Source: a virus (lineage: Duplodnaviria > Caudoviricetes). Taken from it: a stretch of 64,000 nt of DNA. The DNA is taken from positions 32,001-96,000 of IMG/VR virus record IMGVR_UViG_3300031867_000013. The stretch is one strand, 5' to 3'. Under the pieces are notes generated by a model. The model was not told the origin of the DNA. It did not search any database and saw only the letters and a list, made by a program, of their open reading frames with translations. Below, piece after piece: positions 11,034 to 38,405 of the stretch. The first letter of the stretch is position 1, and each line of letters opens with the position of its first letter. The position numbers and the translations under genes were made by a program.

Positions 11034-11138
11034 TTATTAGACACTCCTTTCTTATATAAAAATATTATAATTTACTTAAAAATTATCTTATATTATATCA
11101 TATTTTTACACATTTGTCAAGCCTTAAAAATAGACATA

Positions 11139-11169
11139 CTAAAAGCCCCCAACGGACGGGGGCTTTTAG
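11139..11169. terminator. Terminator hairpin ending the RNA-island transcript
   Basis: CTAAAAGCCCCC-AACGGAC-GGGGGCTTTTAG perfect inverted repeat. Confidence 0.75.
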
Positions 11170-11236
11170 CTGTAAAGGAGATGTTAAAAATGAAGGATAG
11201 CTTTAAGGCAATTACCTTATCGCCACCATATTATAT

Positions 11237-11311
11237 TGGCGGGAAATAAGATAATCGAAATCTTGTCTTTAGATTGACAATCTAATATTCTAACCACTGA
11301 ACTAATTTCCC
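11237..11311 (-). tRNA. tRNA-Asp (GTC)
   Basis: GGGAAAT/ATTTCCC acceptor, anticodon arm TTAGA-TTGTCAA-TCTAA, TTCGA T-loop, encoded CCA. Confidence 0.9.
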
Positions 11312-11322
11312 GTTATATACAT

Positions 11323-11394
11323 TGGATGCGGCGGCTGGTAACGCTCCAGCTTAATCTAGCCCATGAAACTAGACGGGTTCTTAACCTCACCGCG
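11323..11394 (-). tRNA. Atypical tRNA with CAT anticodon (Met/fMet-like)
   Basis: CGCGGTG/CGCCGCA acceptor with C1:A72 mismatch, CTAGT-TTCATGG-GCTAG anticodon arm, CCA; short D arm and non-canonical T loop. Confidence 0.65.
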
Positions 11395-11397
11395 ATT

Positions 11398-11712
11398 AGT
11401 GGGCGTATTATAAATCATAATTGTAAACTTCTTACGCCTAAAGTTTTATTTTGAATAAGAGCGCGTCTTACCGATATTGCCTTGTTCCTATTATCGCGCT
11501 GATTAATAGTCATGGAGAGAACCACTTTCGCAATTCTCCCAAGTATATATCCGCAAATATATACCCCAATTAATATTTTAAGACGTATAACACACAAACT
11601 TCTGTCTTTCTGCCTTTCTGAATATATTTAGGCTTTATACACCCATACTAAGCAAAGTTTTACTGATTATGCTAATATAATTGCCTAACTACTATATAGC
11701 ATTTCGTGTGAA
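11398..11712 (-). ncRNA. Unassigned structured RNA (~310 nt) between tRNAs
   Basis: Nested helices: CACACGAA/TTTGTGTG, ACGTCTTA/TAAGACGC, GTATATAT/ATATATAC, GGGAGAA/TTCTCTC, CGATA/TATCG, GGCGTA/TACGCC; no credible ORF. Confidence 0.5.
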
Positions 11713-11740
11713 ATATTTATTTTAAGTTAAGATGTTTCTT

Positions 11741-11815
11741 TGGTAGGGACGATGAGAATCGAACTCATGTTGATGGTTTATAAGACCATTATACTCACCA
11801 TTGTATTACGTCCCA
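11741..11815 (-). tRNA. tRNA-Ile (TAT)
   Basis: Anticodon arm ATGGT-CTTATAA-ACCAT, GTTCGA T-loop, GGGACG/CGTCCC acceptor, CCA. Confidence 0.85.
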
Positions 11816-11849
11816 ATATTATATACATATTAAATGTTTTATACATTAC

Positions 11850-11913
11850 TACAAGATGCTTTTACATTCATCTTCACCCAAGAATTTGTAAAATAATTGC
11901 TGTTAGCATCTTT
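11850..11913 (-). ncRNA. ACAGCAA stem RNA copy A
   Basis: AAAGATGCT-AACAGCAATTA-TTTTACA...TGTAAAA-GCATCTTGTA. Confidence 0.65.
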
Positions 11914-12062
11914 ATAATTTAGGGGGTAGCTAAATAAAATTACTATAAATATTTTTAAATTGGGTTCTATAGTATAATAAATCTACAATTTTAAAACAAG
12001 GTATTCACGCCAATTTTTATAGTTATTATACTATAGAACTCTATTAGATGCCTAAACTTATC

Positions 12063-12168
12063 TACAAGACACATTATAAAAACTGTCTAAAAATACTTTT
12101 GGACTTCTTAGATTTAATTTTTCTGTTATCAAATAAATTATATCAATTCATTTGCTGTTCGTGTCTTT
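12063..12168 (-). ncRNA. ACAGCAA stem RNA copy B
   Basis: AAAGACACG-AACAGCAAA...TGTGTCTTGTA; TTGACA/TATAAT promoter just upstream (12180-12207). Confidence 0.65.
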
Positions 12169-12224
12169 CATTGTCTGTATTATATCATATAATTTTTAAT
12201 TTGTCAACCATTTTTTTATTTTTT

Positions 12225-12309
12225 TGGTGTCGAAGGAGGGAATCGAACCCTCATGGTAAAGACCGCAGAGGCTTAAACTCTGTGCGTATGCCAATTTCGC
12301 CACTCCGAC
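12225..12309 (-). tRNA. tRNA-Leu (TAA)
   Basis: CAGAG-TTTAAGC-CTCTG anticodon arm, long variable arm, GTTCGA, CCA. Confidence 0.9.
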
Positions 12310-12375
12310 ATATCTTATTTACATTTGTATTATACCACACGAATTTTAATTTGTCAATACTTTTTTCTTTTTCTA

Positions 12376-12462
12376 TATGCGCCCCATCCACGCACATAAT
12401 ACACAGCCCCATTAAACTTTGCTATGCTCCCTTTGAGGTTATCCGTGTGGCTACGGTTTAGG
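12376..12462 (-). ncRNA. Small multi-hairpin RNA with its own promoter
   Basis: TTGACA-17-TATATT at 12471-12499; hairpins CCGT/ACGG, GCATAGC/GCTGTGT, TATGTGC/GCGCATA. Confidence 0.45.
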
Positions 12463-12518
12463 ATATTTATAATATAGCACACAATTCTAATTTTGTCAAC
12501 TACTTTTTAAATATTTTT

Positions 12519-12596
12519 CAAAAAGAAAAGCGGGAAGAACCACCAACCCGCTTTCTTTCTTGATTTAGACAAGTTATGTCTGCAATCAACACTCTA
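12519..12596 (-). ncRNA. Candidate small RNA: promoter, hairpin, terminator
   Basis: TTGACA/TGGTATAAT promoter at ~12603-12631, hairpin TTGATT..AGACA/TGTCT..AATCAA, then AAAGCGGG/CCCGCTTT plus T-run. Confidence 0.4.
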
Positions 12597-12627
12597 TTTT
12601 GTATTATACCACAATTTTTATAATTTG

Positions 12628-14412
12628 TCAAATAAATAATGCGTCAATTTGTGCTTTTGTTGCAATAATTGAACCGCCTATTATATCCCATTTTTCTTTT
12701 TCTGTATCTGTAAAAGTTGATTCTGATGTATGTGCTAATTTACATTTATATATAAATTTATCATGCACAACTACTGTATCTAATTGATAATATGTACTTG
12801 CTTGCCAATTCTTTAAGTCACTAAATACTAAATCCCAATTTCCTATATCTGTTTCAAAACTAATATTAGAACTTGTGTGTGAATTATTGCACCTATATAA
12901 ACTATTTGCATAATTTACTACTTGATTGGTTTTATATTCTGTATTTATAGCCCAATCTTCTAATACTAATACAGATTCAGAACCTAATTCATTCCATTTA
13001 GATATATCAAAATTTACCCCGCTTGTATGTGCTGTTTTACACTCATATAAGCAATCATCATATATTACTATTTGATATACTTCATATTGAGTATTTGCCG
13101 CCCAATGTGCCATTTTATTTCCATCATATATTGTAGTTACGTGCTTTGTCCCATCGGGGTCTGTAAATGTTATTTTATGTTGACCTACTACTGTTTCATC
13201 TATAGTAGTTGTTGGGGATTTACCATCTACACCATCATTTATTGTTACAGTTTGTGTTCCATTCTTATCTGTAATACTTAATGTAGAATATTTTGCTCCT
13301 GCGGATTTTGTTAAATTTACAGTAGGACTATAACCATCTGCACCATTAGATATAACTGTTGTAGAAGTTCCTGCCGCCGAAACAATAGTAACTGTATGTG
13401 TACCATTTGGATTATCTACTACTGTTATTGAAGGGCTTACTCCATTTTCTCCTTTATCACCTTTATCACCTTTATCGCCCTTCATACCAATTATCTTACC
13501 GCAATTTTGCCATTCATATTGTTGTGTACTTGTATTTTCTAACCACATATATAAATATGGCACTTCTTCATCTAATGGGTCTCCAACTAAATAAGCATCA
13601 CCTACAGTACCAGTTGGGTGTGCGGCTTCTAAATCTTCTAATGTTTCATATTGCGCTCTTATTGTAAAGGATTTACCATCTTCACCCTTATCGCCTTTAT
13701 CACCTTTTGCGCCATCTCTTATTTTTGCACTTGTTGTGCCATTAACATCTTGAATTGTTATTGTAGCTGTATCTCCTGTTTTAGATACACTTGCAGAAGG
13801 GCTTACACCGCTTGCTCCATTTGTTCCGTTCATTACATTAAAATCTTTTGTTCCCGATTTATCTGTAATTGAAACTTTATGACCATTAGTTATATTAGTT
13901 ATTGCTACTGTAGGACTATAACCATCTGAGCCTTTTGCTCCATTTGTACCATTATATATATTTGCTGTAGTTGTTCCATTTATATCTACTAATGTTATAG
14001 TTGCTCCACTAGCTGTTTGTGTAATTTTTGCTGTAGGAACTGCTTGAACATCTACGTTTAATTTATCGCCTTGCATTTTAAGACCGCTACCTACTTTTGC
14101 GCCACCTTTTATGTTTGCTGACATTGTTGGAAGTGTATATGGCGTACCGCCGCCACCGCCGCCACCACCCCCTTTCCCGTTTACCTTAAAAGGGACTGTT
14201 GTGAATACTGCGTCTTTATTACCCGCACTTCTTACATATACTGTACCATCAAATGCTACTATCTGATTCTCAATTAATTTTATACCTGTATTATCTTCAT
14301 TAGTTGCAGATATTTCAATAGGTACTTTACTTGTGTTTTGAATAGACCCTGTAGTTTCTTCTGGTGAAACCCAAGTTCCTGCTTTTACATTATACTTTGC
14401 CATCAATATCAT
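12628..14412 (-). CDS. Collagen-like repeat protein with three C-terminal CBM5/12-like carbohydrate-binding repeats
   Basis: G-X-Y runs (GDKGDKGE), repeated 'G.DG.SPT' units, three 'W....Y....V.Y...LY.C...HTS' repeats. Confidence 0.7.
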   Translation of the reverse strand: MILMAKYNVKAGTWVSPEETTGSIQNTSKVPIEISATNEDNTGIKLIENQIVAFDGTVYVRSAGNKDAVFTTVPFKVNGKGGGGGGGGGTPYTLPTMSANIKGGAKVGSGLKMQGDKLNVDVQAVPTAKITQTASGATITLVDINGTTTANIYNGTNGAKGSDGYSPTVAITNITNGHKVSITDKSGTKDFNVMNGTNGASGVSPSASVSKTGDTATITIQDVNGTTSAKIRDGAKGDKGDKGEDGKSFTIRAQYETLEDLEAAHPTGTVGDAYLVGDPLDEEVPYLYMWLENTSTQQYEWQNCGKIIGMKGDKGDKGDKGENGVSPSITVVDNPNGTHTVTIVSAAGTSTTVISNGADGYSPTVNLTKSAGAKYSTLSITDKNGTQTVTINDGVDGKSPTTTIDETVVGQHKITFTDPDGTKHVTTIYDGNKMAHWAANTQYEVYQIVIYDDCLYECKTAHTSGVNFDISKWNELGSESVLVLEDWAINTEYKTNQVVNYANSLYRCNNSHTSSNISFETDIGNWDLVFSDLKNWQASTYYQLDTVVVHDKFIYKCKLAHTSESTFTDTEKEKWDIIGGSIIATKAQIDALFI

Positions 14413-14687
14413 TCCTTTCTTTTATATATGCACAAATAGGACATACATATAGTATGCCCTAATATTATTCTTATTAAATTGCTATGTTATATTTCAATAC
14501 TCCATAATTGACTATTACAATTATAGTATCTCGGCACAAAATGTTTCTATCATATAACATAACATAAGTGGTGGTAATCAACCCAACTTTCAGTATCATC
14601 TTTAATAAAGATATGATTGCTGTAAGTGCCTTATATATCAATGAAAAGATAGACATATATTTCTATATGCCTATCCTCATCTACATA

Positions 14688-16214
14688 TTATCCAAAAACT
14701 TTGTCTATTACTGCATATCGAGGTACATTAAGCTGTTCTACAAGAGCCTTATATGGGTCTAATTGTGAACTCATTACCATACTCATAAGGTTCTTACTAA
14801 ACCCGCTAAGAAGAACAACTCCCATTTCATTCTCTGTCAGCGGAATCGTACCTGTACGACTATTTACATTCCAAAATACTAACTTTGGAAGTTTATAACC
14901 TTTTGCCGCAAACCTATTACGTATTGTTTCAAACAATGCTTCATTTACTGTTGGTGTTCTTTCTCCCCAAAAAGAATTACCATTAGCCACTCCGTCAAAT
15001 TCACAATCCGTGATGATAAGCACTGTATTAGGCATTTCGTCCTGCGACATATGATTCTTTACTGCTGTATCAAGAATCAAATCAAATGTTGCTTCGATAT
15101 TTGTATTAGAGCAATCATTATATTTATGCATAATATTAAGATTACCAAATAAGGTATCACTATTTACAGTTACCATTTGTGGCTTACTGCTAAATGTAAT
15201 AAACTTATTCTTAAATTCTCCACTATTATTTTGAGCGCAATATAATGAAATTGCACTTGCTACATCTAATGCAGAAACATTACTATTACCAATAGTAACT
15301 GTCATAGAACCACTACCATCACGTACAACAAGTGTATTTTTGAAACCTTCTACCTTGTCTTGTGCGTTCCATAATGCTTCTAGTGTTTCATCGACACCAT
15401 TAAACCGACCATAGTTAAATGCACCATACTTATGCACAATATCATGTAAAAACATAGCTTGTGCATTAATCTTTGTTTCACCATTTTTAAGTGATTCAAG
15501 ATATTCTATACGACGCTTTTCATCGTGTTTCATAAAAGCAAAACCATAATTAAGATTTGCCTTTGATGGAACAGCACTATATTCAATATCGTTCCACTCA
15601 TTTGCAGACATTTTACGTTCTACAATATCAATATGCTTACGTAACTTGCTAAGAACTTTACGATATTCCTTTGAACTAAATTCAAACCATTTCTTAATGA
15701 TATGACCGCGCTTAACTGTTTCTGCACTTGACGCATTAACAGATGGCATCCACTTAGCCAAAAGTGAAATAGGTTTACCTTCTTTATAGTTCTTCATATC
15801 GTCAATAAATTGTCCGATTACACGACTACGAATTGCAAGTTGTACTTTCTTGCTCTTTGTATTAAAATAAATATCAAGAATATCATCCCAACGACCATAT
15901 TCTGCAATATCCACTTCATTAATTAGCTTTACTGCAATATCTTCGTGTGCCTTTGCAAGATAAACCATAAATTCTCTAAATGATTTACGTTCACCTACAC
16001 CACCACGAACATCACGCAAAAATAGAAGCCATTTTAAAGTAAGCACTTTATCTTCATTAAGTGCTTCTTCAAATAATGCAGTATCTACTTCTGTACGGAA
16101 AGAAGGAATTGCAAAATTAAGGTCTACAATCTTATGACCTTCTGTAGCAAAACCTACTGCACCATTTTCTGTTAGCTTCTTCTCATTCTTCTCCATTGCT
16201 TTGATAAAACTCAT
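14688..16214 (-). CDS. DUF2828-family protein (TROVE/Ro60-like helical domain plus vWA domain)
   Basis: 'TENGA', 'RDVRGGVGER', 'EYGRWDD', 'SLLAKWMPS', MIDAS 'DGSGSM', 'TDCEFD', 'PKLVFWNV', 'LSGFS' motifs. Confidence 0.85.
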   Translation of the reverse strand: MSFIKAMEKNEKKLTENGAVGFATEGHKIVDLNFAIPSFRTEVDTALFEEALNEDKVLTLKWLLFLRDVRGGVGERKSFREFMVYLAKAHEDIAVKLINEVDIAEYGRWDDILDIYFNTKSKKVQLAIRSRVIGQFIDDMKNYKEGKPISLLAKWMPSVNASSAETVKRGHIIKKWFEFSSKEYRKVLSKLRKHIDIVERKMSANEWNDIEYSAVPSKANLNYGFAFMKHDEKRRIEYLESLKNGETKINAQAMFLHDIVHKYGAFNYGRFNGVDETLEALWNAQDKVEGFKNTLVVRDGSGSMTVTIGNSNVSALDVASAISLYCAQNNSGEFKNKFITFSSKPQMVTVNSDTLFGNLNIMHKYNDCSNTNIEATFDLILDTAVKNHMSQDEMPNTVLIITDCEFDGVANGNSFWGERTPTVNEALFETIRNRFAAKGYKLPKLVFWNVNSRTGTIPLTENEMGVVLLSGFSKNLMSMVMSSQLDPYKALVEQLNVPRYAVIDKVFG

Positions 16215-16229
16215 TTTTAATCATCCTTT

Positions 16230-16320
16230 CAAGTTGCCTTTTATTTTTTAACCCTATAAGGGTACGATTAACGCGATGTAATCCAAATTAAATAAAAACT
16301 ATTTTGCTGTATGCAACTTT
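16230..16320 (-). ncRNA. ACAGCAA stem RNA copy C, in the 5' leader of the DUF2828 gene
   Basis: AAAGTTGCAT-ACAGCAAA...GCAACTTG directly followed by AAAGGATG RBS and ATG; promoter at ~16330-16358. Confidence 0.65.
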
Positions 16321-16377
16321 ATATTTTATATTATATCATATTTTTTATATTTTGTCAATATAAATTTTTAATATTTT

Positions 16378-16451
16378 TGGAGCGATTAAGGAGATTTGAA
16401 CTCCTACCGACTACTTGGAAGGAAGTCATGCTACCATTACACTATAACCAC
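16378..16451 (-). tRNA. tRNA-Gly (TCC)
   Basis: Anticodon loop CTTCCAA, GTTCAA T-loop, TCCA 3' end. Confidence 0.85.
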
Positions 16452-16460
16452 ATATAAATT

Positions 16461-16563
16461 TACAAGCCGCCACAAGACGTCGGGTCAGATACAGGATTCT
16501 AACCTGTCTTAATACACATCTGTAAATCCGACAATTATCTTCTTTATTGCTGTTAGTGACTTT
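16461..16563 (-). ncRNA. ACAGCAA stem RNA copy D with T-arm mimic
   Basis: AAAGTCACT-AACAGCAAT...GGCGGCTTGTA; internal CAGAT/ATCTG helix stacked on ACAGG-TTAGAAT-CCTGT. Confidence 0.6.
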
Positions 16564-16605
16564 ATACTGCGAAAGGAGGACTCTCACATTGAAAATACTA
16601 TTTTA

Positions 16606-16728
16606 TACAAGACACATCTCTTTTTAATGCGACCGCACACCGAACAGCATACAACTGTGTTGGGAGTTTAACCCAATCCTTATTTTTTGCAGAAATAATT
16701 AAGAAAAATAATTGCTGTTTGTGTCTTT
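16606..16728 (-). ncRNA. ACAGCAA stem RNA copy E with Cys anticodon-arm and T-arm mimic
   Basis: AAAGACACA-AACAGCAATT...TGTGTCTTGTA; TTATTT-CTGCAAA-AAATAA then TTGGG-TTAAACT-CCCAA. Confidence 0.65.
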
Positions 16729-16748
16729 TTTAAATTATTTACATATTT

Positions 16749-16824
16749 TGGTGACGAATCGGGGAATCGAACCCACGCTCTAGGGATTGAAAGCCCCTCG
16801 TCCTAACCGCTAGACTAATTCGTC
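16749..16824 (-). tRNA. tRNA-Glu (TTC)
   Basis: AGGGG-CTTTCAA-TCCCT anticodon arm, GTTCGA, GACGAAT/ATTCGTC acceptor, CCA. Confidence 0.9.
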
Positions 16825-16830
16825 ATATTA

Positions 16831-16904
16831 TACAAGATGCTAAATGATAAGTAAAATAAAATATGCGCTTTATATACTTGAAAATAATTGCTGTTCGCAT
16901 CTTT
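16831..16904 (-). ncRNA. ACAGCAA stem RNA copy F
   Basis: AAAGATGCG-AACAGCAATTATTTT...AGCATCTTGTA; promoter at ~16911-16939. Confidence 0.65.
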
Positions 16905-16948
16905 TTCTGTATTATAACATATAAAATTTAATTTGTCAATACTTTTTT

Positions 16949-17164
16949 TTAATTTTTTCTTGGTAATCCTAATCTTTTTGCCAAACTATTTGCAAATACA
17001 AGAATATCTAAATTAAATTCATTTGCAATATTACCAATTAAAATAAATACTTGCAAAATAAGTTGAATTGGAACAAAAATTATAAACAATAAACAAAACT
17101 GTAAAAATTGTGTTATTGTCATTTCATAAATATCATATACTATTTTCATCTTTTTGTTCACCAT
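16949..17164 (-). CDS. Small membrane protein (paralog of 17133-17357)
   Basis: Hydrophobic 'YDIYEMTITQFLQFCLLFIIFVPIQLIL'. Confidence 0.55.
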   Translation of the reverse strand: MVNKKMKIVYDIYEMTITQFLQFCLLFIIFVPIQLILQVFILIGNIANEFNLDILVFANSLAKRLGLPRKN

Positions 17165-17357
17165 CTTCTTTTACAGGAAAATTCCATTTTTCTGCAAGTT
17201 CAAAGACATAATTCTTGACAATTTCATCTAATTCTCCCATCTTTGCCCCAACAAAAACAAAAACAGAAAGAAATAGATGAATAGGTACTCCTACAATACT
17301 AAGAAGTAGAAATTCTAAAAATTGTACTATTGTCATTTTCTTTATATCGTATTTCAT
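17133..17357 (-). CDS. Small membrane protein (paralog of 16949-17164)
   Basis: 'YDIKKMTIVQFLEFLLLSIVGVPIHLFL'; GGTGGTG RBS. Confidence 0.6.
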   Translation of the reverse strand: MKYDIKKMTIVQFLEFLLLSIVGVPIHLFLSVFVFVGAKMGELDEIVKNYVFELAEKWNFPVKEDGEQKDENSI

Positions 17358-17393
17358 GTATTTTCACCACCTATAATGTTTTATATATATTAT

Positions 17394-17468
17394 TGGTGGG
17401 CTTATCAGAAGTTGAATCTGAACTAGAAATTTAGAAGATTTCTGTGCTGTCCGTTACACTATAAGCCA
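17394..17468 (-). tRNA. tRNA-Arg (TCT)
   Basis: GAAAT-CTTCTAA-ATTTC anticodon arm, CCA end. Confidence 0.85.
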
Positions 17469-17478
17469 ATTATATTTC

Positions 17479-17794
17479 TGGTGGACTAGACGGAGGCGAA
17501 TCCGTGTCCGAAATTACTACATTTCAAAGAACTATCACAATAGCTATATTAACTGATAGCAACAGTAGTAGAAAAGGAGATTTTATTATGAAAAACTTTG
17601 TTGTATTTATTTAATATTTTTCTGCATTGACCTACAACATAGTATTACAGAAAAAGAAACTGATAGCAACTTATGCCGCTACAGCTTCATATTCAAAAGA
17701 AAAGTTGTCAGTTATTATACTGTTTAGACTTTAACGCTGTACATTCCGTGTGAACTTTGAAATTTCATAACTCCGTCGAAACATAAACTAGCCC
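17479..17794 (-). ncRNA. ssrA: tmRNA; tag (A)DNFSFEYEAVAA* at 17709-17671
   Basis: 5' GGGCTAG...TTTCGAC, 3' GGACACGGATTCGCCTCCGTCTAGTCCACCA, G3:U70 pair, ATAACT-GAC resume context, tag ending in AA-stop. Confidence 0.92.
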
Positions 17795-17807
17795 ATATTA
17801 AATTTTA

Positions 17808-17881
17808 TGGCAGGAGTTGAAGGAATCGAACCCCCATAGGTAGTTCTGGAGACTACCGTATTACCATTATACGAAACTCCC
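17808..17881 (-). tRNA. tRNA-Trp (CCA)
   Basis: GTAGT-CTCCAGA-ACTAC anticodon arm, GTTCGA, GCCA end. Confidence 0.9.
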
Positions 17882-17885
17882 ATTT

Positions 17886-18140
17886 ATGCGCCTTTATAGA
17901 CCCCTCCTGTCTAATGCCGCCACATAGCTTGTGATAGACCGACCCATTAAAAGAAACATAAATGTTTCTCACCTACCCGACCAAGATATATATCTTGAAG
18001 CCCTATCACTCCAATATTGTGAAAATGTATTTAGGTGCTTACCCCACACCACAGGACAAAATCAAAACTGTTTGCGCGACAACCGACAAACCCAAACAAA
18101 TATCCACATGATAGTTGTTTTCGCGCACCTTTATATAGAA
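17886..18140 (-). ncRNA. Unassigned structured RNA (~255 nt) between tRNA-Lys and tRNA-Trp
   Basis: GC-richer island with helices TGCGCGA..ACAAC/GTTGTCGCGCA, TCCTGT/ACAGGA, GTGATAG/CTATCAC, CAAGAT/ATCTTG, GAAACA/TGTTTC. Confidence 0.5.
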
Positions 18141-18158
18141 GATTGGTCTTTTAATTTT

Positions 18159-18235
18159 TGGTGGGACTAATAGGATTCTAACTTATATCTTGCGAATTAA
18201 AAGTTCGCTGTACTTAACAATTATACTATAGTCCC
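18159..18235 (-). tRNA. tRNA-Lys (TTT)
   Basis: GCGAA-CTTTTAA-TTCGC anticodon arm, GGGACTA/TAGTCCC acceptor, CCA. Confidence 0.88.
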
Positions 18236-18239
18236 ATCT

Positions 18240-18312
18240 GTGCGGAAATTATGGAATTTAACCATAACCTTATATCCCATGACATATATGCTAAACATTA
18301 CACCAATTCCCG
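18240..18312 (-). pseudogene. Degenerate tRNA (Pro-TGG-like)
   Basis: CGGGAAT/ATTTCCG acceptor and D arm present; anticodon loop only 6 nt (CATGGG); no CCA. Confidence 0.45.
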
Positions 18313-18319
18313 CATATCA

Positions 18320-18387
18320 TACAAGGCACGTTTGCTTGGATAGATTAAAAGTCTATTACATTAAAAATAATTGCTGTATGTGCCTTT
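18320..18387 (-). ncRNA. ACAGCAA stem RNA copy G with Lys anticodon-arm mimic
   Basis: AAAGGCACAT-ACAGCAATTATTTT...GTGCCTTGTA; internal ATAGA-CTTTTAA-TCTAT. Confidence 0.65.
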
Positions 18388-18475
18388 AGTCAAAAGAAAG
18401 GAGATGTTGAATGTCAATCTTTTTCATTGACAAGCATATTATATCACAAAATTTTACGTTTGTCAATAGGAAAAA

Positions 18476-31233: not shown

Positions 31234-31410
31234 TTATTCTTCCTCCTTTTGTACGTCTACGACTTCTTTTACACCCAAGAAACGGAAATTATGCAAGTCA
31301 GAAGGAGTAAACCACTTTTTGCTTGCAATTTTAGCCGCTTCTTTTTCGTTCTTTGCATCAACGTAAATCTCCCCCGTAAAAACAACGTCTACTTGCACTT
31401 GATACGTCAT
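31234..31410 (-). CDS. Small hypothetical protein (58 aa)
   Basis: AAGGAGATGT RBS; MTYQVQVDVVFTGEIYVDAKNEKEAAKIA...; terminator downstream. Confidence 0.6.
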   Translation of the reverse strand: MTYQVQVDVVFTGEIYVDAKNEKEAAKIASKKWFTPSDLHNFRFLGVKEVVDVQKEEE

Positions 31411-31526
31411 AAGAACATCTCCTTTTCATATAATAAATTCAACCTAACTATATTATACACATTACAGGATATAATGCAAGTGTTTTTTATAAAAAATCCT
31501 AAAATATTTTTCTTTCTATTATAAGG

Positions 31527-32667
31527 AATTGTCAGAATATTTAGTGTCTTTTGACAATGCACATTTGTTGGAACATTTTGTATTCTATATATGGTAAAAA
31601 TCATACTATTCTGAATATTTGCCTTGCTAGAGTAAGAGATTAAATTTTCAGAAAATTTCAAATTTGTCCACGGCATATCAAAATTTTCAGAAAAATCTAA
31701 ATAATATAATACGTCAAATATATCTGAAATGTGCATAAATACTGACAATTAGGAATATTTCGGCGCAAACAAAAAGGAAACATAATATTCAGAAAATTAG
31801 GCAATTTTTTCCTATATAGAGAAATACAAATTAGTCAGAAAATTATAAAATATAAGAATAATATAATATGTCAGAATATAGGCGCAACATAAAGGAATAT
31901 GAATTTTCAGATAATTCTTATATATCTTATTATTCTTATATTTCGCGCAAAACAAAAAGGGATAAATATTCAGACAATTATATATAATCATATATTTCTA
32001 TATAATATTATATTTCTATATATAATATAATAATCAGACAATATAGAATATTATATGTATTCTACCAATATACATTTGTCAGAAAGTTTTGTATTTTCCT
32101 ATAGGGAAAATTTATACTTTTCTGAAAACTTTCCTTGCGGCACTAAGGAAGTATAATTATCAGAAAATTATGATTTTGTCCACGAATAATCTGAAATTTA
32201 ATATTCTGACAATTTAAAATAAACTTTTTACTTGACAAATACAAATATAGGCAAATAGTACCAATAAAATAGAATGTATGTACGGGCTGGGAAGCCTTGA
32301 AATTAAAGGAAAATCGTCTGTATTCGACGAAAAAAGACTACCGAATATAAATATATGCGTACCATATAAAAAACGACTGGCAAGGCTGCCAGATAGGTTA
32401 AAATGGATTTTAAGTATTGACAAAAACCTAAAATTTTATCATTCTTTGACTTTTTGTCCAATAAAGTTATATGTCTATATATAATATAAATAGACATAAT
32501 AATATGAATTGTCAGAAAATTAGGGCGCGGCAAAAAACAAAAAAGAGAAAGAGAATCATTATATATAGAGAGAATATATATCAAATGAAAATAATTATTA
32601 TTATATGATAATGATTATAGCTATATATATAGACAATATTGCTATTTTTCATAGTTTTCTGAAAATT
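31527..32667. promoter_or_regulatory. CodY-box-like cluster 3 (about 15 sites)
   Basis: Perfect AATTTTCAGAAAATT at 31643; near-matches at ~31527, 31682, 31784, 31902, 31965, 32155, 32200, 32507, 32653. Confidence 0.65.
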
Positions 32668-33138
32668 TCTATATTTATGGTTCTTTAGTGTATTAAAGCA
32701 CTAAATTAGTATGCTATTAACGTATTTATTCTTCTTTTCTTTAGTATAGTAAAGTAAGCGAGCGAAACAGGGAATATTTTTCACTTTTTGTCAATACTTC
32801 AAATTTTCAAAATTTAATATGAATAAAAACTATTTTCTTAATACTATAAATTTTCTATTTATTATTAATACTCTAAAATATAATTCTATATATTCTTTCT
32901 TTCTATATATCCATATATTTATATACTATCCCTCTTTCTTTTTTGTTTTTTGCGCCCAGGATAGTTTTATATATTATAGTATTATATTTATATATATTAG
33001 ACTTTATATATACTCCCATCTTTTTCTTTGTTTTCCGCGCCAAATATATATTATAGTTATATATAAAACATTATATTATGTATCCTCTTTTCTTTTTATT
33101 TTTGCCGCCAAAATATCCTTGAAATATACTTTATTTTA

Positions 33139-33268
33139 TATATGAAAGTATACTCATATATTCATAAATAAATCAAACATACTTTCTATTATATAAATAT
33201 ATGAACATATAAATATATGAACAATCATTCATATATATTATATTCTTATATGAACATATATTCATATA
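33139..33268. promoter_or_regulatory. Cluster of ATATGAAC-type palindromes (ArsR/SmtB-like)
   Basis: TGAA-N6-TTCA cores at 33218 and 33251, a one-mismatch core (TGAA-N6-CTCA) at 33143, with ATA/TAT flanks. Confidence 0.4.
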
Positions 33269-33427
33269 TAGACAAATAAAAAAGCAGGAAAATTATATTC
33301 CCTGCTTATATATATTATAAGTTTTTTATTCCTTTTATAATATTATCTATTTTTTCATTGTATTCCGTTTCAAGTTTATATTGCCTATAATCATCACTAT
33401 ATTGTGGATAAGGATATTTATAATTTT

Positions 33428-33661
33428 TTAGTTTTTGAATATATTCTTTTTTGCCAAAATATATTCTTTTATTGTAATTAAATCTTTGACTTTTTCTTTA
33501 AATTGTTGATAATAAGAAGTATTTTTATATTCTTTATATATATTATTTAATTCTTCCCTTGTACTAATATATCCATCATTAAAATATATAGTTTTGTTGT
33601 TTTCTGCAATACTTAATAAATATGCTTTTCCTTTTAATTTAACCATTTTAATTTTTAACAT
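33428..33661 (-). CDS. Hypothetical early protein
   Basis: AAGGAGATG RBS, TTGACA promoter. Confidence 0.55.
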   Translation of the reverse strand: MLKIKMVKLKGKAYLLSIAENNKTIYFNDGYISTREELNNIYKEYKNTSYYQQFKEKVKDLITIKEYILAKKNIFKN

Positions 33662-33968
33662 ATAATCATCTCCTTTTATCTTATATTATCATATCTATAG
33701 ATATTTGTCAATAGAAAAATATAAATAAAAAAGCAGGGAATATATATTTCCCTGCCTTTATTGTTTCAGTATGCCATATTTACTTTATATATATTTGTCA
33801 GTGATTGTATAGTTTCTTTATAGTCTATTTCTTCATCTATTTTTCTTTCTATATATTGCTTTTTGTTTTCTTCTCTTTCTTCTTTGCGCTTTTTCTCGAT
33901 AAATGCTTTTAATTTTTCCCTTGCTGTCATTATATATGCACTTCCCTTCTTTTATTTTTATTGTTTCT

Positions 33969-34307
33969 TTATTTCGTCGTGATTGCTTTCATAAACTCCT
34001 TCAAAAGTTTCTTTACAGCCTTTTCTTTTCCTTCCCATGTTTTATAGCGTTTATCCTTATACATGATTTTTTCTGCTTTTCTGTCATATTTCCGCACGAT
34101 TTCATAGTTAACACTTTGTCCGAAAGGTCGATAACCTGTCACAATGGCGTATCCGTTTATGCTGTAAATATCAGCGTTCCAGCCATATGCGCCGCAAGTA
34201 TAGCTTTCTGGCAGTTCAAAATGGAGTAGATTTTGCAATTCACAATAACCAACAGAAAAACAATCATAATACCGCATAATTTCGCTTTTCTTTGCCTTGT
34301 ACTTCAT
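33969..34307 (-). CDS. Phage early protein
   Basis: 'GYCELQNLL...YTCGAYGWNADIY...TGYRPFG'; own promoter. Confidence 0.6.
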   Translation of the reverse strand: MKYKAKKSEIMRYYDCFSVGYCELQNLLHFELPESYTCGAYGWNADIYSINGYAIVTGYRPFGQSVNYEIVRKYDRKAEKIMYKDKRYKTWEGKEKAVKKLLKEFMKAITTK

Positions 34308-34445
34308 TAAAAACATCTCCTTTTTAATATATAGGTTATTTCCATTTACTGATTATATACTAGCACAATATTATATATTTGTCAAGCATTAAAAATAAAA
34401 AAAATATAAGAAAAGGACAAGAATTTTTTCTTGTCCCTTTGTTCT

Positions 34446-34646
34446 TTATATTTCCATGTTTTCTATAGAATCACAAATACTTTCTATTTCAATTCTTTGT
34501 TGCCATAACTTTTTATATACTTCATCTTTTTCATATTTATTTATATCATCATTATATAATTCTTTTATTGTCTTTTCTTCCTGCTTCATTTCTTCGACAA
34601 TCTTCGACAATACTTCATAAATAACTGTATACTGTTTGAACGTCAT
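34446..34646 (-). CDS. Hypothetical protein
   Basis: AAGGAGATGT RBS. Confidence 0.55.
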   Translation of the reverse strand: MTFKQYTVIYEVLSKIVEEMKQEEKTIKELYNDDINKYEKDEVYKKLWQQRIEIESICDSIENMEI

Positions 34647-34991
34647 TATAAAACATCTCCTTTTTATATTGTTACATTTATATTGTTACATTAAAAATAT
34701 AAACTGCAAGAAAAACAATAAAGCTACAAAAAAGAATCATATCTAAAGCAATAAAATCAATTTCTTCGTACTCCTTCGGATTTCTAAAAAATGATTGTTT
34801 CATATAAACATCTCCTTTCTTTATGCTATCATTATATCATATACACATAATGTTTCAATAGTCTTTTTGTCCTATTATATATTTATAGTACATATAATTT
34901 TTAATCAAAAAAAATAGTACGTCTATATAGACGTACTAAAAAGAAAGGAAAGGAATATATATAAATAGAAGGGTAAACAAATATAATATAT

Positions 34992-35384
34992 TTATATCAT
35001 AAATAATATATCTTTCATCCATGTTTTATAAGATTTTACTGCTTGTTTTTCTTCTTTCGTGCTATATGTTTCTATTTTATAACCAAAATTTTTATATACC
35101 ATATCACCATATTTCTTAAATTTCGAGCCGTGATTCATACATCCTCGACAAGTATGGCATAATTCATGCATTATAGTATTAATTAAACTTTGTTTTCCTG
35201 CATATAACGCAATTCCCGAAAAAGTGATTGTATATTTTCCATCATTATTTATTTCTGTTATAGCAAAATACTTGGCGTTTTTCCTTGCAATCTTTATTTC
35301 ACCAATAACGCCACAAGGAATTTTTACTTCTTTCATATCTTTCCTTATCTGCAAGACAAGGTTTTTCAATTCTTCAATTCTCAT
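34992..35384 (-). CDS. SprT-like zinc metalloprotease
   Basis: 'NTIMHELCH...HGSKFK'; start re-called after GGAAAGGGGAG. Confidence 0.7.
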   Translation of the reverse strand: MRIEELKNLVLQIRKDMKEVKIPCGVIGEIKIARKNAKYFAITEINNDGKYTITFSGIALYAGKQSLINTIMHELCHTCRGCMNHGSKFKKYGDMVYKNFGYKIETYSTKEEKQAVKSYKTWMKDILFMI

Positions 35385-35526
35385 TGTATAAACTCCCCTT
35401 TCCTTTGTATGCTTGCATTGTAGCACAAGAAAGGAATTTATACAATAGGACAAAAGACATAAATTATATAATATCTTTTGTCCCATTGTAAAACATTATA
35501 TCTACAGTTTATATATAGTTTATATA

Positions 35527-36150
35527 TTATCCTCTATAGATTGTACCATCACTATTATATATTTCTCTATCATCTTCAAGCAATCTTTCGCGCCAATTTT
35601 CTTCTGAATCATATTCTTCCGCCGCTTCAAGGATAGTTTTGCATAGTTTATCTTCTACATCCTCAATAAAATCCGCTACAGAAAAAGAAACGTGCTTTTT
35701 AATGTTATTAATGTATTCTAAATATATATCATGTACCACGAAATCAATATACAAACCACTGATGGAAGAAAACTCTTTAATTGCCTTGCTATAGCGTTTT
35801 TTATATGTATATTTGCCATTAATATATTTTCCATTTGTACTATAATATTTTCCTTTGACAAACGGGGAAATAAAGTTATTGTAAATATATTTCAATGCTC
35901 TAATATCTTTCAAATCATCTGCAATGTCATCAAAGGAAAATTCAATATGAGACGGCGAACAAGTAGAAAATTCATAGTCTACCTTTTTATCTGCTCCCAT
36001 AGTATAAGCAATGTCAGACAATGCATCAATTTCGGGGCGTACCTCATCCCAATAAAACATATTATCACTTTGCGCTTTTTCTATAATTTTATCCTGCTTA
36101 TCTTTTGACAATTCATCAAACCTATACAGCTTTACCATGATTTCCTTCAT
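35527..36150 (-). CDS. Phage early protein
   Basis: 'LYRFDELSKDKQDK' N-term, acidic C-term. Confidence 0.6.
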   Translation of the reverse strand: MKEIMVKLYRFDELSKDKQDKIIEKAQSDNMFYWDEVRPEIDALSDIAYTMGADKKVDYEFSTCSPSHIEFSFDDIADDLKDIRALKYIYNNFISPFVKGKYYSTNGKYINGKYTYKKRYSKAIKEFSSISGLYIDFVVHDIYLEYINNIKKHVSFSVADFIEDVEDKLCKTILEAAEEYDSEENWRERLLEDDREIYNSDGTIYRG

Positions 36151-36216
36151 TTTATACATCTCCTTTTCTTATTGTAAACACATTATATCATATAATGTTT
36201 TATCTGTCAATATATT

Positions 36217-36471
36217 TTATTCAAAAACATACAAAACTTTTTCGGAAGGAAAAGAAATATTTGCTTTTTCTTTAAGTTTAGCAATAATTTCTTCCTTGTT
36301 CCACTGTGTTGTAATGGAGTTATCGTTATTTATCCTGCCAATACCTATATTTTTCGCTCCTTCCCTTGAAATAACTTTATATTGATTATCCTGCATAAGT
36401 GTATAGATATAAACACGATACAAATGATTTCCATTAATGTCATAACCATTTTCTTTGATTCTTGCAAACAT
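36217..36471 (-). CDS. Hypothetical protein
   Basis: Own promoter and AAGGAGATGT RBS. Confidence 0.55.
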   Translation of the reverse strand: MFARIKENGYDINGNHLYRVYIYTLMQDNQYKVISREGAKNIGIGRINNDNSITTQWNKEEIIAKLKEKANISFPSEKVLYVFE

Positions 36472-36542
36472 ATATAAACATCTCCTTTTCTTTATTCTGA
36501 TTGTATTATATCACAGGAAAATTATTTTGTCAATACTTATTT

Positions 36543-36752
36543 TTATAATTCTTTTATTCCTCCTAATTGATAAATAGCTTTGCCATTATTCCATCCGTTA
36601 AAATGAACATACCAAGTATAACCTTTATAATGAATATAATGGCTATATTCTCCATGATAGACAATACGTTCAATATATTTATATACTCCTATTTTATTCT
36701 TTTCGGGATTGTCACATCTGATAATAATTGTTGCTTTAGTTTTGTGTTTCAT
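36543..36752 (-). CDS. Hypothetical protein
   Basis: Own promoter and RBS. Confidence 0.55.
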   Translation of the reverse strand: MKHKTKATIIIRCDNPEKNKIGVYKYIERIVYHGEYSHYIHYKGYTWYVHFNGWNNGKAIYQLGGIKEL

Positions 36753-36916
36753 ATTTACATCTCCTTTATATAATGGTTCTTTGTTTATCTGTTTATACTA
36801 TATCATACTTTTAATGTTTTTACAATAGGACGATATTCCTAAATGTATATATGTAATTAAAATATGTATGCAAATTAAAAAGGAGTAGGAAATATATCCT
36901 ACTCCTTTTGTGTGTT

Positions 36917-37240
36917 TTACTTCTTTGCTTTCTTGGTATCAGCTTTCTTTTCTGCTTTGACTTCCTGCTTACTTTCCTTGACTTCCTGCTTGTTTTCCAA
37001 AAGCTCCTTCACAACATCTGCTACAGTCTTACCGTTGATTGCCATTGCCTTGATGGCGTCGCGGCTATCCTTATATACCGTAATGTTCACAAGACCCAGC
37101 TTCGCGGCTCGATTTTTCGCGTATTGCTTCTGTTTTTCCTGCCAATTCTTCTTAACTTCAACCTTGCAATCATCACAATACCTTACAGCCGCCGACGTAG
37201 CCTCAAACTCCTTACCGCACATTGCACAAAAACGCTTCAT
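36917..37240 (-). CDS. Zn-ribbon (CxxC...CxxC) plus RHH-like DNA-binding protein
   Basis: 'CAMCGKEF...YCDDC' and 'NITVYKDSRDAIKAMA..GKTVADVVKELL'. Confidence 0.55.
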   Translation of the reverse strand: MKRFCAMCGKEFEATSAAVRYCDDCKVEVKKNWQEKQKQYAKNRAAKLGLVNITVYKDSRDAIKAMAINGKTVADVVKELLENKQEVKESKQEVKAEKKADTKKAKK

Positions 37241-37377
37241 AATTAATACATCTCCTTTTAATATTTTGTTGATTGATTTTTACTGTTTACATTATAGCAT
37301 ATGTTTTTCTGTTTGTCAATACTTTTTTTATTTTTTATTTCAATACACATCACTTCCCTATAATATATACATTGTTA

Positions 37378-37635
37378 TTATCTCATCAGATTTTCCAAGT
37401 TATGCAACACACCTTTTGCAGTATTCATAACGATTGTTTCAACCATTGCTTCAACCATCGCACCATAATGTTGTGGCAAATCGAAAGGATTTTCGCAAGA
37501 CAAAGGGGAAATAATTCCTTCTTGTGTTTCGATTTCACTTCCACCGCCGATAAACAATACAGGCTTGTTTGTTTTTCTGTCAAAATAGATTGTCAATCCC
37601 ATTTGCAAATCTTTGTCCCATTTTCGTTTCTCCAT
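37378..37635 (-). CDS. Hypothetical protein
   Basis: Start re-called after AAGGAGATGT. Confidence 0.5.
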   Translation of the reverse strand: MEKRKWDKDLQMGLTIYFDRKTNKPVLFIGGGSEIETQEGIISPLSCENPFDLPQHYGAMVEAMVETIVMNTAKGVLHNLENLMR

Positions 37636-37824
37636 AACAACATCTCCTTTTAATATTTTATTGTTTCCTTTGATTGTCTTTAGTATATCACAAACATTTC
37701 TATTTGTCAATACTTTTTTTTATTTTTTTTGAAGTTTTTTATTTCCATAAATCACTTCTTTCTTGTTTCATTGTCTGTATTATATCATATTATGTTTTGT
37801 TTGTCAATACATATTTTAATATTT

Positions 37825-38139
37825 TTACAAAAGATTTTTGTTATCCCAAAACCACATCCCAAAAACATCTCCAAAGTATTCCCGCAACATATGAGTATAA
37901 ATAATATATTTTTGGTGATTCGTTACATGGAGAAAATGAATCTTAATATCATCTTTATATATCACTACTTCAAAATCAATATAAGTATCATAAAATCCAT
38001 TTTCATCCATATAATCATATGTATTATAGAAGTGAAGTTTTCCTCTTGTATCAATTTTATGTTCCCATTTGCCATTGAATCCACTACCATGAGGAAGGGA
38101 ATCAATAATACTGTAAATCTTTTCTTCCGTATACTTCAT
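37825..38139 (-). CDS. Hypothetical phage protein
   Basis: 'LPHGSGFN' motif; own promoter. Confidence 0.55.
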   Translation of the reverse strand: MKYTEEKIYSIIDSLPHGSGFNGKWEHKIDTRGKLHFYNTYDYMDENGFYDTYIDFEVVIYKDDIKIHFLHVTNHQKYIIYTHMLREYFGDVFGMWFWDNKNLL

Positions 38140-38205
38140 ATTTATCTCTCCTTTCATATTATGTCTGCATTATATCATAATGTTTTATACTTGTCAATAC
38201 ACTTT

Positions 38206-38391: not shown

Positions 38392-38405
38392 ATTAAACCA
38401 TCTCC

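What the first reader, a model, noticed from the sequence alone, without database searches (positions are those of the whole stretch)
11174..18413. RNA-island transcripts contain antisense copies of the RBS shared by the early genes
Seen: about a dozen minus-strand genes share the RBS AAGGAGATGT (e.g. genes starting at 31410, 34307, 34646, 36150, 36471, 36752, 37240, 37635, 40322, 41472, 63691). The same motif appears on the PLUS strand at 11174-11194 (AAAGGAGATGTTAAAAATGAA) and 18393-18413 (AAAGAAAGGAGATGTTGAATG), so the minus-strand transcripts carry its complement. The 11174 copy sits just before a terminator and matches 16 nt of the 63691 leader; the 18393 copy follows a promoter-proximal hairpin. 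Weaker anti-SD tracts occur at 16571, 17571 and ~34941. Inference: trans-acting sRNAs that shut off the early regulon (or host mRNAs) through a common RBS.
Basis: partly seen in the sequence, partly recalled or inferred. Interest (0 to 1): 0.7.

Follow-up and report, generated by a model that had tools for sequence, protein, structure and literature searches.

The report
Phage small RNA mirroring ribosome-binding sites
A 118-kb uncultured phage and its relatives keep, at the tail of a tRNA operon, a short folded RNA with an exposed stretch that mirrors the ribosome landing site of the phage's own early genes, so it probably turns their translation down, though no experiment shows this yet.

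Summary
AAGGAGATGT occurs 16 times in the window (0.15 expected). Fourteen copies lie on the minus strand, nearly all as RBSs of small genes that have their own promoters. Two lie on the plus strand, inside the minus-strand RNA island.

Copy 1 (11171-11227) is a real, conserved non-coding module: a two-tier hairpin, a 22-25-nt unpaired seed, then a terminator. It sits just upstream of the terS promoter in nine distinct relatives.
- The hairpin covaries (4 of 11 pairs compensatory, 100% paired) and keeps a G.U pair that exists only in the minus sense.
- The seed is almost invariant.
- The plus-strand "19-aa ORF" is not conserved; in one lineage it is three codons long.

In a distant relative both the early-gene RBS class (GAG[A/G]UAAU) and the seed (AUUAUCUCC) differ, and the changes are complementary.

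Copy 2 (18393-18411) is conserved in one relative and is less certain. The 17571 tract lies inside a phage tmRNA. The 34941 tract has no support.

Best reading: a csRNA-like sRNA that masks translation start sites. Expression and repression are untested. Unchecked notes of this scan describe similar tRNA-linked anti-SD RNAs in other phages.

The parts
12179..12207 (-). Perfect sigma-A-type promoter (TTGACA-17-TATAAT with TG). It is the most likely driver of the operon that ends in the copy-1 module: stem units, tRNA-Ile, a structured RNA, tRNA-Asp, then the module.
   Evidence: 12 of 12 match. No terminator-like site lies between it and 11170. That the transcript is continuous is inferred.
11237..11311 (-). 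tRNA-Asp(GUC) with an encoded CCA. The module begins 9 nt after its 3' end.
   Evidence: sequence read.
11196..11227 (-). Hairpin 1 of the module: 6 bp, a 2x2 internal loop, then 5-6 bp.
   Evidence: MFE fold. In 6 distinct sequences all 11 pairs form in every sequence, 4 pairs carry compensatory double changes, and one G.U pair is invariant and possible only in the minus sense (alignment A2).
11171..11195 (-). Unpaired seed CUUCAUUUUUAACAUCUCCUUUACA. It is the complement of SD, spacer, AUG and AAG (finding's copy 1, plus-strand 11174-11194).
   Evidence: Unpaired in the MFE and centroid folds of WIN and of six relatives. Nearly invariant while the flanking hairpin and terminator diverge.
11138..11170 (-). 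Intrinsic terminator (14-bp stem, U tail) that closes the RNA island just upstream of the terS promoter.
   Evidence: Every relative has a terminator of different sequence at the same place.
11092..11120 (-). terS promoter, which marks the downstream boundary of the module.
   Evidence: The TerS family assignment (PF03592) is.
18438..18466 (-). Perfect promoter that starts the first island transcript.
18412..18432 (-). Hairpin next to the promoter, equally an inverted repeat TTGTCAAT-N7-ATTGACA. It could be an RNA 5' hairpin or a DNA operator.
   Evidence: Identical in L010.
18393..18411 (-). Copy 2: UUCAACAUCUCCUUUCUUU in the 5' leader, directly 5' of an ACAGCAA stem unit.
   Evidence: The leader is conserved in L010:30-95 with a C-to-U change in the core. 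That change turns GGAG into GGAA on the plus strand but keeps a G.U pair in the antisense reading.
16568..16590 (-). Third tract, GAGAGUCCUCCUUUCGCA, between two stem units. The fold puts UCCUC in a hairpin loop.
   Evidence: Conserved in L007:2650-2675 and in L008.
17571..17590 (-). AAAAUCUCCUUUUCU tract inside the phage tmRNA (17479-17794), in the poorly aligned region on the 3' side.
36141..36171 (-). Best predicted target in the phage: the translation start region of a 207-aa early gene of unknown function. Predicted duplex about 22 bp, -30.7 kcal/mol.
   Evidence: The same start region is kept in homologues in L133 and L136. No Pfam family.
31400..41500 (-). Array of small genes, each with its own promoter. 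Eleven of the 17 genomic copies of the class RBS AAGGAGATGT lie here; these are the presumed target set.
   Evidence: Seed duplexes with these RBSs are -19 to -25 kcal/mol. The same RBS class is used in the early regions of relatives.

Best explanation
Copy 1 belongs to a conserved small-RNA module encoded on the minus strand, at the 3' end of a phage tRNA operon. The module is a two-tier hairpin, a 22-25-nt unpaired seed and an intrinsic terminator.

The seed is the exact complement of a translation start region: SD AAAGGAGAUGU, an A-rich spacer, AUG and AAR. After release from the tRNA precursor (inferred), the RNA pairs with the start regions of the phage's own small genes that have their own promoters and share the RBS class (A/G)GGAGAUGU. 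The strongest predicted partner is the 207-aa gene at 36150. Pairing would mask the SD and start codon from 30S subunits and probably expose the messages to decay. This would tune or shut down early-gene translation as the stable RNA accumulates.

Shown here: the module, its structure, its conservation, its strand, seed accessibility by prediction, complementarity, and complementary change of seed and RBS class in one distant lineage. Inferred: transcription, processing, pairing in vivo, repression and timing.

Copy 2 and the 16571 tract may be further anti-SD displays placed next to the ACAGCAA stem units. The evidence for them is thinner.
For: 1. Motif statistics.
2. Position. The module sits between the last island RNA and the terS promoter in WIN, L129/130, L007-9, L010/11, L012-15/131/132, L016, L128 and L004. 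TerS identity to WIN is 52-81% for the assembly-derived relatives; L004 was found through its DUF2828 protein. The module follows different upstream genes in different relatives: tRNA-Asp, tRNA-Asn, a tRNA-Met-like RNA, or no tRNA.
3. Hairpin covariation, and a G.U pair possible only in the minus sense.
4. Every variant folds as hairpin, unpaired seed, terminator.
5. The seed is nearly invariant while the terminators are unrelated in sequence.
6. The plus-strand ORFs are 19 aa in WIN and MKR-stop in the L012 group. In L016, L128 and L004 the peptides are unrelated. Compensatory hairpin changes also rewrite the peptide.
7. No credible plus-strand promoter exists, and a bidirectional terminator stands 4 nt upstream of the plus-strand 'RBS'.
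8. The class RBS GGAGAUGU is kept in early genes of relatives. Two of its positions mismatch the standard 16S tail (established knowledge of the CCUCC anti-SD), so 16S pairing alone does not explain it.
9. In the L128-type phage 7 of 11 early genes use GAG(A/G)UAAU and none uses GGAGAUGU. Its seed reads AUUAUCUCC instead of AACAUCUCC, which amounts to two adjacent complementary changes.
10. With the CUCC core fixed and the flanks shuffled, real seeds bind their own start regions far better. WIN: -18.9 against -10.7 +/- 1.5 kcal/mol (0 of 300 shuffles as good). L128 type: -14.9 against -9.7 +/- 1.2 (1 of 300). Non-cognate pairs give about -14.
Against:
- Any anti-SD pairs with any SD, so target specificity rests on the flanks.
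- The covariation between seed and RBS comes from only two lineages. The cognate advantage in the L128 type is small (-14.9 against -14.0).
- The island promoters are of the same class as the promoters of the presumed targets, so a temporal switch is not explained.
- The word 'early' is itself an inference from gene size and private promoters.
- The module is absent in L127, a relative with 56% TerS identity.
- The seed word alone is common in AT-rich phages, because it is the complement of a generic gene start.
- The host is unknown, so host targets cannot be weighed.
Confidence: 0.5

Rival explanations
1. The module is a real sRNA, but its main targets are host messages or SD sequences in general. 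It would be a generic copy of the 16S tail that damps host translation, not a regulator of the phage's own early genes.
For: The core CAUCUCCUUU resembles the 16S 3' tail, and L004 carries CACCUCCUUUC, an exact 16S-like tail. The island carries several anti-SD tracts. Non-cognate seeds still bind start regions better than flank-shuffled controls.
Against: The seed is conserved beyond the SD, through spacer, CAU and UU. The lineage-specific change matches the phage's own RBS class. A generic sponge would have to titrate a vast excess of SDs.
Confidence: 0.2
2. The conserved stretch has a cis or structural role: a 3'-end stabiliser, a processing or terminator platform, or a protein-binding AU-rich tract. 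Its likeness to a start region would then be a relic of an inverted duplication of a gene start, with no pairing function.
For: Copy 1 shares 22 of 24 nt with the 36150 leader, which could reflect common descent. The AU-rich single strand next to a terminator is a common binding platform for RNA chaperones and RNases (general knowledge). No expression or target data exist.
Against: A relic would drift, yet the seed is the most conserved part of the locus across TerS identities of 52-81%. In L128 it changed in step with the RBS class. The seed does not follow the terS RBS in L016, where terS has AAGGGGGUGA and the seed is unchanged. That argues against a cis anti-SD for terS.
Confidence: 0.17
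3. The plus-strand sites are genuine translation start sites of tiny peptides or mini-ORFs (19 and 22 aa).
For: A strong SD with ATG at the right spacing occurs at both sites and at the equivalent site in relatives.
Against: Peptide length and sequence are not conserved, and the L012 group has a stop after three codons. Hairpin covariation ignores the reading frame, and the invariant G.U pair would be an A-C mismatch in the plus sense. There is no plus-strand promoter, and a terminator lies 4 nt upstream. Copy 2's SD is GGAA in L010. Its ORF overlaps the conserved minus-strand promoter, so conservation of that ORF is uninformative.
Confidence: 0.05
4. The two plus-strand copies are chance or mutational leftovers with no function.
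For: The genome is AT-rich, and SD-like words are frequent in phages of this kind.
Against: 0.15 copies are expected in the window. The anti-SD is enriched in the island (6 observed against 0.34 expected). It is conserved across nine variants, with covariation in the adjoining hairpin.
Confidence: 0.03

Closest known systems
csRNAs (CiaR-dependent small RNAs) of streptococci (PMC3091779)
   Same: Two stem-loops, the second a terminator, flank an unpaired region that carries both an anti-SD and an anti-start codon (CAU in 53 of 61 csRNAs). They are proposed to block ribosome access to translation start regions. The architecture is the same as.
   Different: csRNAs are chromosomal genes with their own CiaR-dependent promoters. 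This module has no promoter of its own and sits in a phage tRNA-operon trailer. No Rfam family matched the module at E <= 1. The presumed targets here are the phage's own genes.
C-rich / UCCC-motif sRNAs of Firmicutes (Rsa RNAs, RNAIII hairpins, RoxS) (PMC2790875)
   Same: Unpaired pyrimidine-rich motifs that pair with SD sequences to repress translation independently of Hfq, in low-GC Gram-positives (listing).
   Different: Those display short UCCC motifs in loops and target only the SD. Here a long linear seed also covers the spacer and the start codon. The 16571 tract (UCCUC in a loop) is closer to that style.
c4 antisense RNA of phages P1/P7 (own knowledge; lead from scan note e1-3434443)
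   Same: A phage-encoded RNA, processed from a longer transcript, that pairs with a ribosome-binding region of a phage message.
   Different: c4 controls one operon (icd-ant) in a temperate phage's immunity circuit, through two short loops. No Rfam C4 match was found here. Here many genes share the presumed target.
T4 RegB and RegA (PMC3014915)
   Same: Class-wide post-transcriptional control of phage early messages through their translation start regions. RegB cuts GGAG in early SDs, and RegA competes with ribosomes at about 30 start regions. This is the functional analogue of what is proposed here.
   Different: Those are proteins. Here the proposed effector is an RNA, and its specificity would come from base pairing.
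3'ETS-leuZ of E. coli, a regulatory RNA derived from a tRNA 3' trailer (own knowledge: Lalaouna et al. 2015)
   Same: A functional base-pairing RNA made from the spacer between the last tRNA of an operon and its terminator.
   Different: 3'ETS-leuZ sponges sRNAs. The module here mirrors mRNA start regions and is phage-encoded. In L007 the module lies about 270 nt after the last tRNA.

Membership tests
Trans-acting base-pairing sRNA (generic definition) | Discrete non-coding unit with a conserved secondary structure | tested here: met
   Hairpin 1 forms all 11 pairs in 6 distinct sequences, with 4 compensatory pairs. All variants fold the same way.
Trans-acting base-pairing sRNA (generic definition) | Conserved, accessible seed complementary to mRNA targets | tested here: met
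   The seed is unpaired in all folds and nearly invariant. It is complementary to the class RBS genes at -19 to -31 kcal/mol. Real flanks beat shuffled flanks.
Trans-acting base-pairing sRNA (generic definition) | Intrinsic terminator at the 3' end | tested here: met
Trans-acting base-pairing sRNA (generic definition) | The RNA is expressed and accumulates | not testable with these tools
Transcription is inferred from perfect upstream promoters.
Trans-acting base-pairing sRNA (generic definition) | Pairing-dependent change in target translation or stability | not testable with these tools
   Only indirect evidence: complementary change of seed and RBS class in the L128 lineage.
csRNA family (Rfam / PMC3091779) | Unpaired anti-SD plus anti-AUG between two stem-loops | tested here: met
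csRNA family (Rfam / PMC3091779) | Match to the family covariance model | tested here: not met
   No csRNA hit at E <= 1 in 11000-18700.
csRNA family (Rfam / PMC3091779) | Own CiaR-dependent promoter | tested here: not met
   The module starts 9 nt after tRNA-Asp. Only a TATAAT-like word precedes it, with no matching -35.
c4 antisense RNA (Rfam C4) | Match to the family covariance model | tested here: not met
   No hit.
tRNA 3'-trailer (3'ETS) derived RNA | Lies between the last tRNA of an operon and its terminator | tested here: met
   True for WIN, L010, L129, L012 and L014. In L007/L008 the module lies about 270 nt beyond the last tRNA.
Small protein gene on the plus strand | Reading frame and peptide conserved among relatives | tested here: not met
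   19 aa, then 3 codons, then unrelated peptides.
Small protein gene on the plus strand | A promoter able to produce the plus-strand message | tested here: not met
   No plus-strand site better than 9 of 12 nearby. A terminator lies 4 nt upstream of the SD.

The most novel reading that the evidence does not exclude
A clade of large virulent Firmicute-type phages runs an RNA-only counterpart of T4 RegA/RegB. A private ribosome-binding 'address' is shared by the early genes, and a tRNA-operon-borne anti-address RNA co-evolves with it. This would give the phage class-wide control of its own early proteome.

The further anti-SD tracts are placed next to or inside the ACAGCAA stem units that surround a Ro60-like (DUF2828) gene. 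They might guide an RNP to SD-bearing messages. With the similar tRNA-linked anti-SD RNAs that this scan noted in unrelated phages, this could be a widespread, undescribed layer of phage gene control.
Probability: 0.25. Interest if true: 0.8.

Novelty: new variant of a known kind. Interest (0 to 1): 0.6.

Why it matters
Very few regulatory RNAs are known from virulent phages. Class-wide control of early translation is known only through proteins (T4 RegA and RegB). A conserved RNA that mirrors the shared ribosome-binding site of the early genes, rides on a tRNA operon and changes together with that site would show that phages also solve this problem by base pairing.

It would also explain why a 10-nt RBS is identical in 17 genes. 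It would give a simple handle (one seed, many targets) for testing early-gene function in uncultured phages. And it would give a rule for finding such RNAs in metagenomes: an unpaired anti-start-region seed between the last tRNA and the terminator.

Tried and rejected
- megablast of the island against the INPHARED phage collection: no match.
- IMG/VR relatives through the DUF2828 protein and TerL gave only L004 and two distant contigs.
- A scan of IMG/VR for the seed word returned more than 110 loci. A covariance model of hairpin plus seed showed these contain the word only, as the complement of ordinary gene starts, and not the module. The word by itself is therefore not diagnostic.
- A GTDB genome scan with the major capsid protein found nothing, so the host stays unknown.
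- The genome search cannot reach the Logan/ENA records. I walked one record instead with the last look-up.
- Idea that the 19-aa ORF (..ITLSPPYY..) is a relic of a DNA methyltransferase motif IV: rejected. The residues change with the hairpin's compensatory substitutions.
- Idea that the seed masks the terS RBS in read-through transcripts: not supported. The terS RBS of L016 changed while the seed did not, and the terS start region is not among the best duplexes.
- No partner for the seed turned up inside the island.
- Rfam found nothing in the module, at either the gathering or the E <= 1 threshold.


Full report
**Setting.** The window is bases 32001-96000 of a 117,886-bp IMG/VR phage record with 29.7% G+C. 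Almost all genes lie on the minus strand. Between the small terminase gene (10215-11033, PF03592) and about 18.5 kb lies an RNA island read on the minus strand. It holds eight tRNAs and a tmRNA at 17479-17794. It also holds eight perfect TTGACA-17-TGnTATAAT promoters, repeated ACAGCAA stem units and a Ro60-like DUF2828 gene. Other first-stage notes on this genome cover the stem units and the Ro60-like gene.

**The observation.** AAGGAGATGT occurs 16 times in the window against 0.15 expected, and 17 minus / 2 plus in the whole genome. Of the 17 minus-strand copies, 15 precede a start codon by 2-7 nt. Most belong to small genes that sit 25-45 nt behind their own consensus promoter, and eleven lie at 31.4-41.5 kb. 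After AGGAG, the four bases ATGT are by far the commonest continuation on the minus strand: 16 cases, against 6 for the next most frequent. Two of the ten positions mismatch the standard 16S tail (established knowledge of the CCUCC anti-SD), so pairing with 16S rRNA alone does not explain the uniformity.

Both plus-strand copies lie in the RNA island (11175-11184 and 18398-18407), and each has an ATG at RBS spacing. In the 3.7 kb of non-coding island read in the minus sense, CUCCUU occurs 6 times against 0.34 expected. Anti-(SD plus start) occurs 5 times against 0.42 expected. Sense SDs are at expectation.

**Anatomy of copy 1.** On the minus strand, tRNA-Asp (11311-11237, with encoded CCA) is followed by 9 nt and then a two-tier hairpin (11227-11196). 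Next comes an unpaired stretch, CUUCAUUUUUAACAUCUCCUUUACA (11195-11171), and then a strong terminator (11170-11138). After that lies the terS promoter. This is the classic shape of a base-pairing sRNA, and the anti-SD and anti-AUG sit in the single-stranded part.

**Relatives.** IMG/VR holds almost none. TerS homologues in the large protein collection form a graded series from 99% to 44% identity, and their contigs keep the same gene order. Nine distinct variants of the module were found, always between the last island RNA and the terS promoter: WIN, L129, L007, L008, L010, L012, L016, L128 and L004. The gene upstream differs (tRNA-Asp, tRNA-Asn, a tRNA-Met-like RNA, or none), and the terminators are unrelated in sequence. 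Yet the seed is nearly invariant.

Hairpin 1 forms all 11 pairs in six distinct sequences. Four pairs carry compensatory double changes, and one G.U pair is invariant. That G.U pair would be an A-C mismatch on the plus strand. All variants fold as hairpin, unpaired seed, terminator. One relative, L127, lacks the module.

**The plus-strand ORF rival.** The ORF is 19 aa in WIN. In L129 and L007 the hairpin's compensatory changes rewrite it. In the L012 group it stops after three codons. In L016, L128 and L004 it encodes unrelated peptides. There is no plus-strand promoter, and the bidirectional terminator ends 4 nt before the supposed SD. What is conserved is SD, spacer, AUG and AAR, which is the seed read backwards.

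**Targets.** A duplex scan of the whole genome puts the start region of the 207-aa gene at 36150 first (-30.7 kcal/mol, about 22 bp). All class-RBS genes follow at -19 to -25 kcal/mol. That gene has no Pfam family. Its homologues at 79-81% identity in L133 and L136 keep the same start region; the 60% homologue in L138 does not.

Early regions of relatives use the same RBS class, (A/G)GGAGAUGU. I extended the L128 record with the last look-up (L139). Its early genes use a different class, GAG(A/G)UAAU, in 7 of 11 genes, and GGAGAUGU in none. Its seed reads AUUAUCUCC where WIN has AACAUCUCC. That amounts to two adjacent complementary changes, and the U also allows a G.U pair with the GAGG variant.

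I then kept the CUCC core fixed and shuffled the seed flanks. Real seeds bind their own early start regions much better than the shuffles. For WIN the values are -18.9 against -10.7 +/- 1.5 kcal/mol (0 of 300 shuffles as good). For the L128 type they are -14.9 against -9.7 +/- 1.2 (1 of 300). Non-cognate combinations give about -14. This supports co-evolution of the seed and the phage's own RBS class. It rests on only two lineages, and the cognate advantage in the L128 type is small.

**Copy 2 and the weaker tracts.**
- Copy 2 lies in the 5' leader of the transcript from the promoter at 18466. It follows a 7-bp hairpin and directly precedes an ACAGCAA unit.
- The first 60 nt or so of that leader are almost identical in L010, while the promoter spacer and the unit loop diverge. 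The one core difference is C to U. That weakens a plus-strand SD (GGAG becomes GGAA) but keeps a G.U pair in the antisense reading.
- Copy 2's plus-strand ORF overlaps the conserved minus-strand promoter, so its conservation says nothing. Its hairpin is also a perfect inverted repeat, TTGTCAAT-N7-ATTGACA, and could be a DNA operator.
- L007 and L127 carry CAUCUCCUU inside ACAGCAA units. It is predicted to be unpaired in L007 and partly paired in L127.
- The 16571 tract is conserved in L007 and L008 and is predicted to show UCCUC in a loop.
- The 17571 tract lies within the tmRNA. The 34941 tract has no support.

**Mechanism and comparison.** The best-supported reading is an sRNA that masks translation start regions. 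The closest known kind is the streptococcal csRNAs: two stem-loops flanking an unpaired anti-SD plus anti-AUG (PMC3091779). The UCCC-motif sRNAs of Firmicutes are also close (PMC2790875). The module matched no Rfam family, and a covariance model of it finds no copy among 95 IMG/VR loci that merely contain the seed word. It is therefore a clade-specific element that works like these families, not a member of them. Functionally it parallels T4 RegB and RegA, which act on early translation start regions as a class (PMC3014915). Its origin in a tRNA trailer recalls 3'ETS-leuZ, and its phage origin recalls c4 of P1/P7 (both from my own knowledge). Unchecked notes of this scan describe tRNA-linked anti-SD RNAs in several unrelated phages. 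The theme may therefore be general.

**Limits.** There is no transcript evidence and the host is unknown. Any anti-SD pairs with any SD. The island promoters are of the same class as those of the presumed targets, so timing is unexplained. The label 'early' is inferred.

**Verdict.** I rate the existence of a functional minus-strand RNA module as very likely (about 0.85). I put repression of the phage's own class-RBS genes at about 0.5.

Noticed in passing
window 17479-17794 (-): Phage-encoded tmRNA (Rfam 51.3 bits, E 2e-19) with an intact tRNA-like domain and CCA end. ARAGORN did not call it. Read by eye, the tag frame gives DNFSFEYEAVAA followed by a stop. The pseudoknot region is reduced and holds one of the anti-SD-like tracts.
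   Followed up: partly
window 12520-12631 (-): Stand-alone sRNA gene: a perfect promoter (12631-12603), a transcript of about 75 nt and a terminator (12544-12529). It is conserved in L007:7004, L008:6149 and L129:2581. The internal hairpin looks covarying in L008 and L129.
   Followed up: partly
window 12365-12499 (-): A second promoter-driven RNA of about 100 nt without an ORF. It carries an SD-like AAAGGGAG and a GC-rich 3' part, and is conserved in L010:7836 and L129:2709. It could be a partner or a sponge for the anti-SD RNAs; this was not tested.
   Followed up: no
window 11890-18387 (-), eight sites (11913, 12168, 14632, 16323, 16563, 16728, 16904, 18387): ACAGCAA stem units (AAG-NNNN-nACAGCAAUUAUUUU ... 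NNNN-CUU-GUA) with covarying closing stems. One forms the 5' UTR of the DUF2828 (Ro60-like) gene. Anti-SD tracts sit directly 5' of two units here and inside units in L007 and L127.
   Followed up: partly
window 11312-11400 (-): Degenerate tRNA-like RNA ending in GCAUCCA, just before tRNA-Asp. It has a UUCAUGG loop (anticodon CAU). ARAGORN calls the homologue tRNA-Met in L007, L010 and L016 but makes no call here. About 340 nt of GC-richer, apparently structured RNA lie upstream (11400-11740) with no Rfam match.
   Followed up: no
window 18412-18432: Perfect inverted repeat TTGTCAAT-N7-ATTGACA at about +1 to +21 of the promoter at 18466, identical in L010. It may be an operator rather than, or as well as, an RNA hairpin.
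   Followed up: no
whole window and loci L007-L016: Both presumed early genes and structural genes (terS, scaffold/capsid operon, tail genes) are preceded by the same perfect extended -10 consensus promoter. Many transcripts start with ACAGACAA. Promoter sequence alone therefore does not set the timing.
   Followed up: partly
L008, L010, L012-L016, L127, L128 (TerL region): The large terminase gene of relatives is split or invaded by GIY-YIG/NUMOD3 and HNH homing endonuclease genes, or by an intein with a LAGLIDADG domain. The window's TerL (8852-10198) is intact.
   Followed up: no
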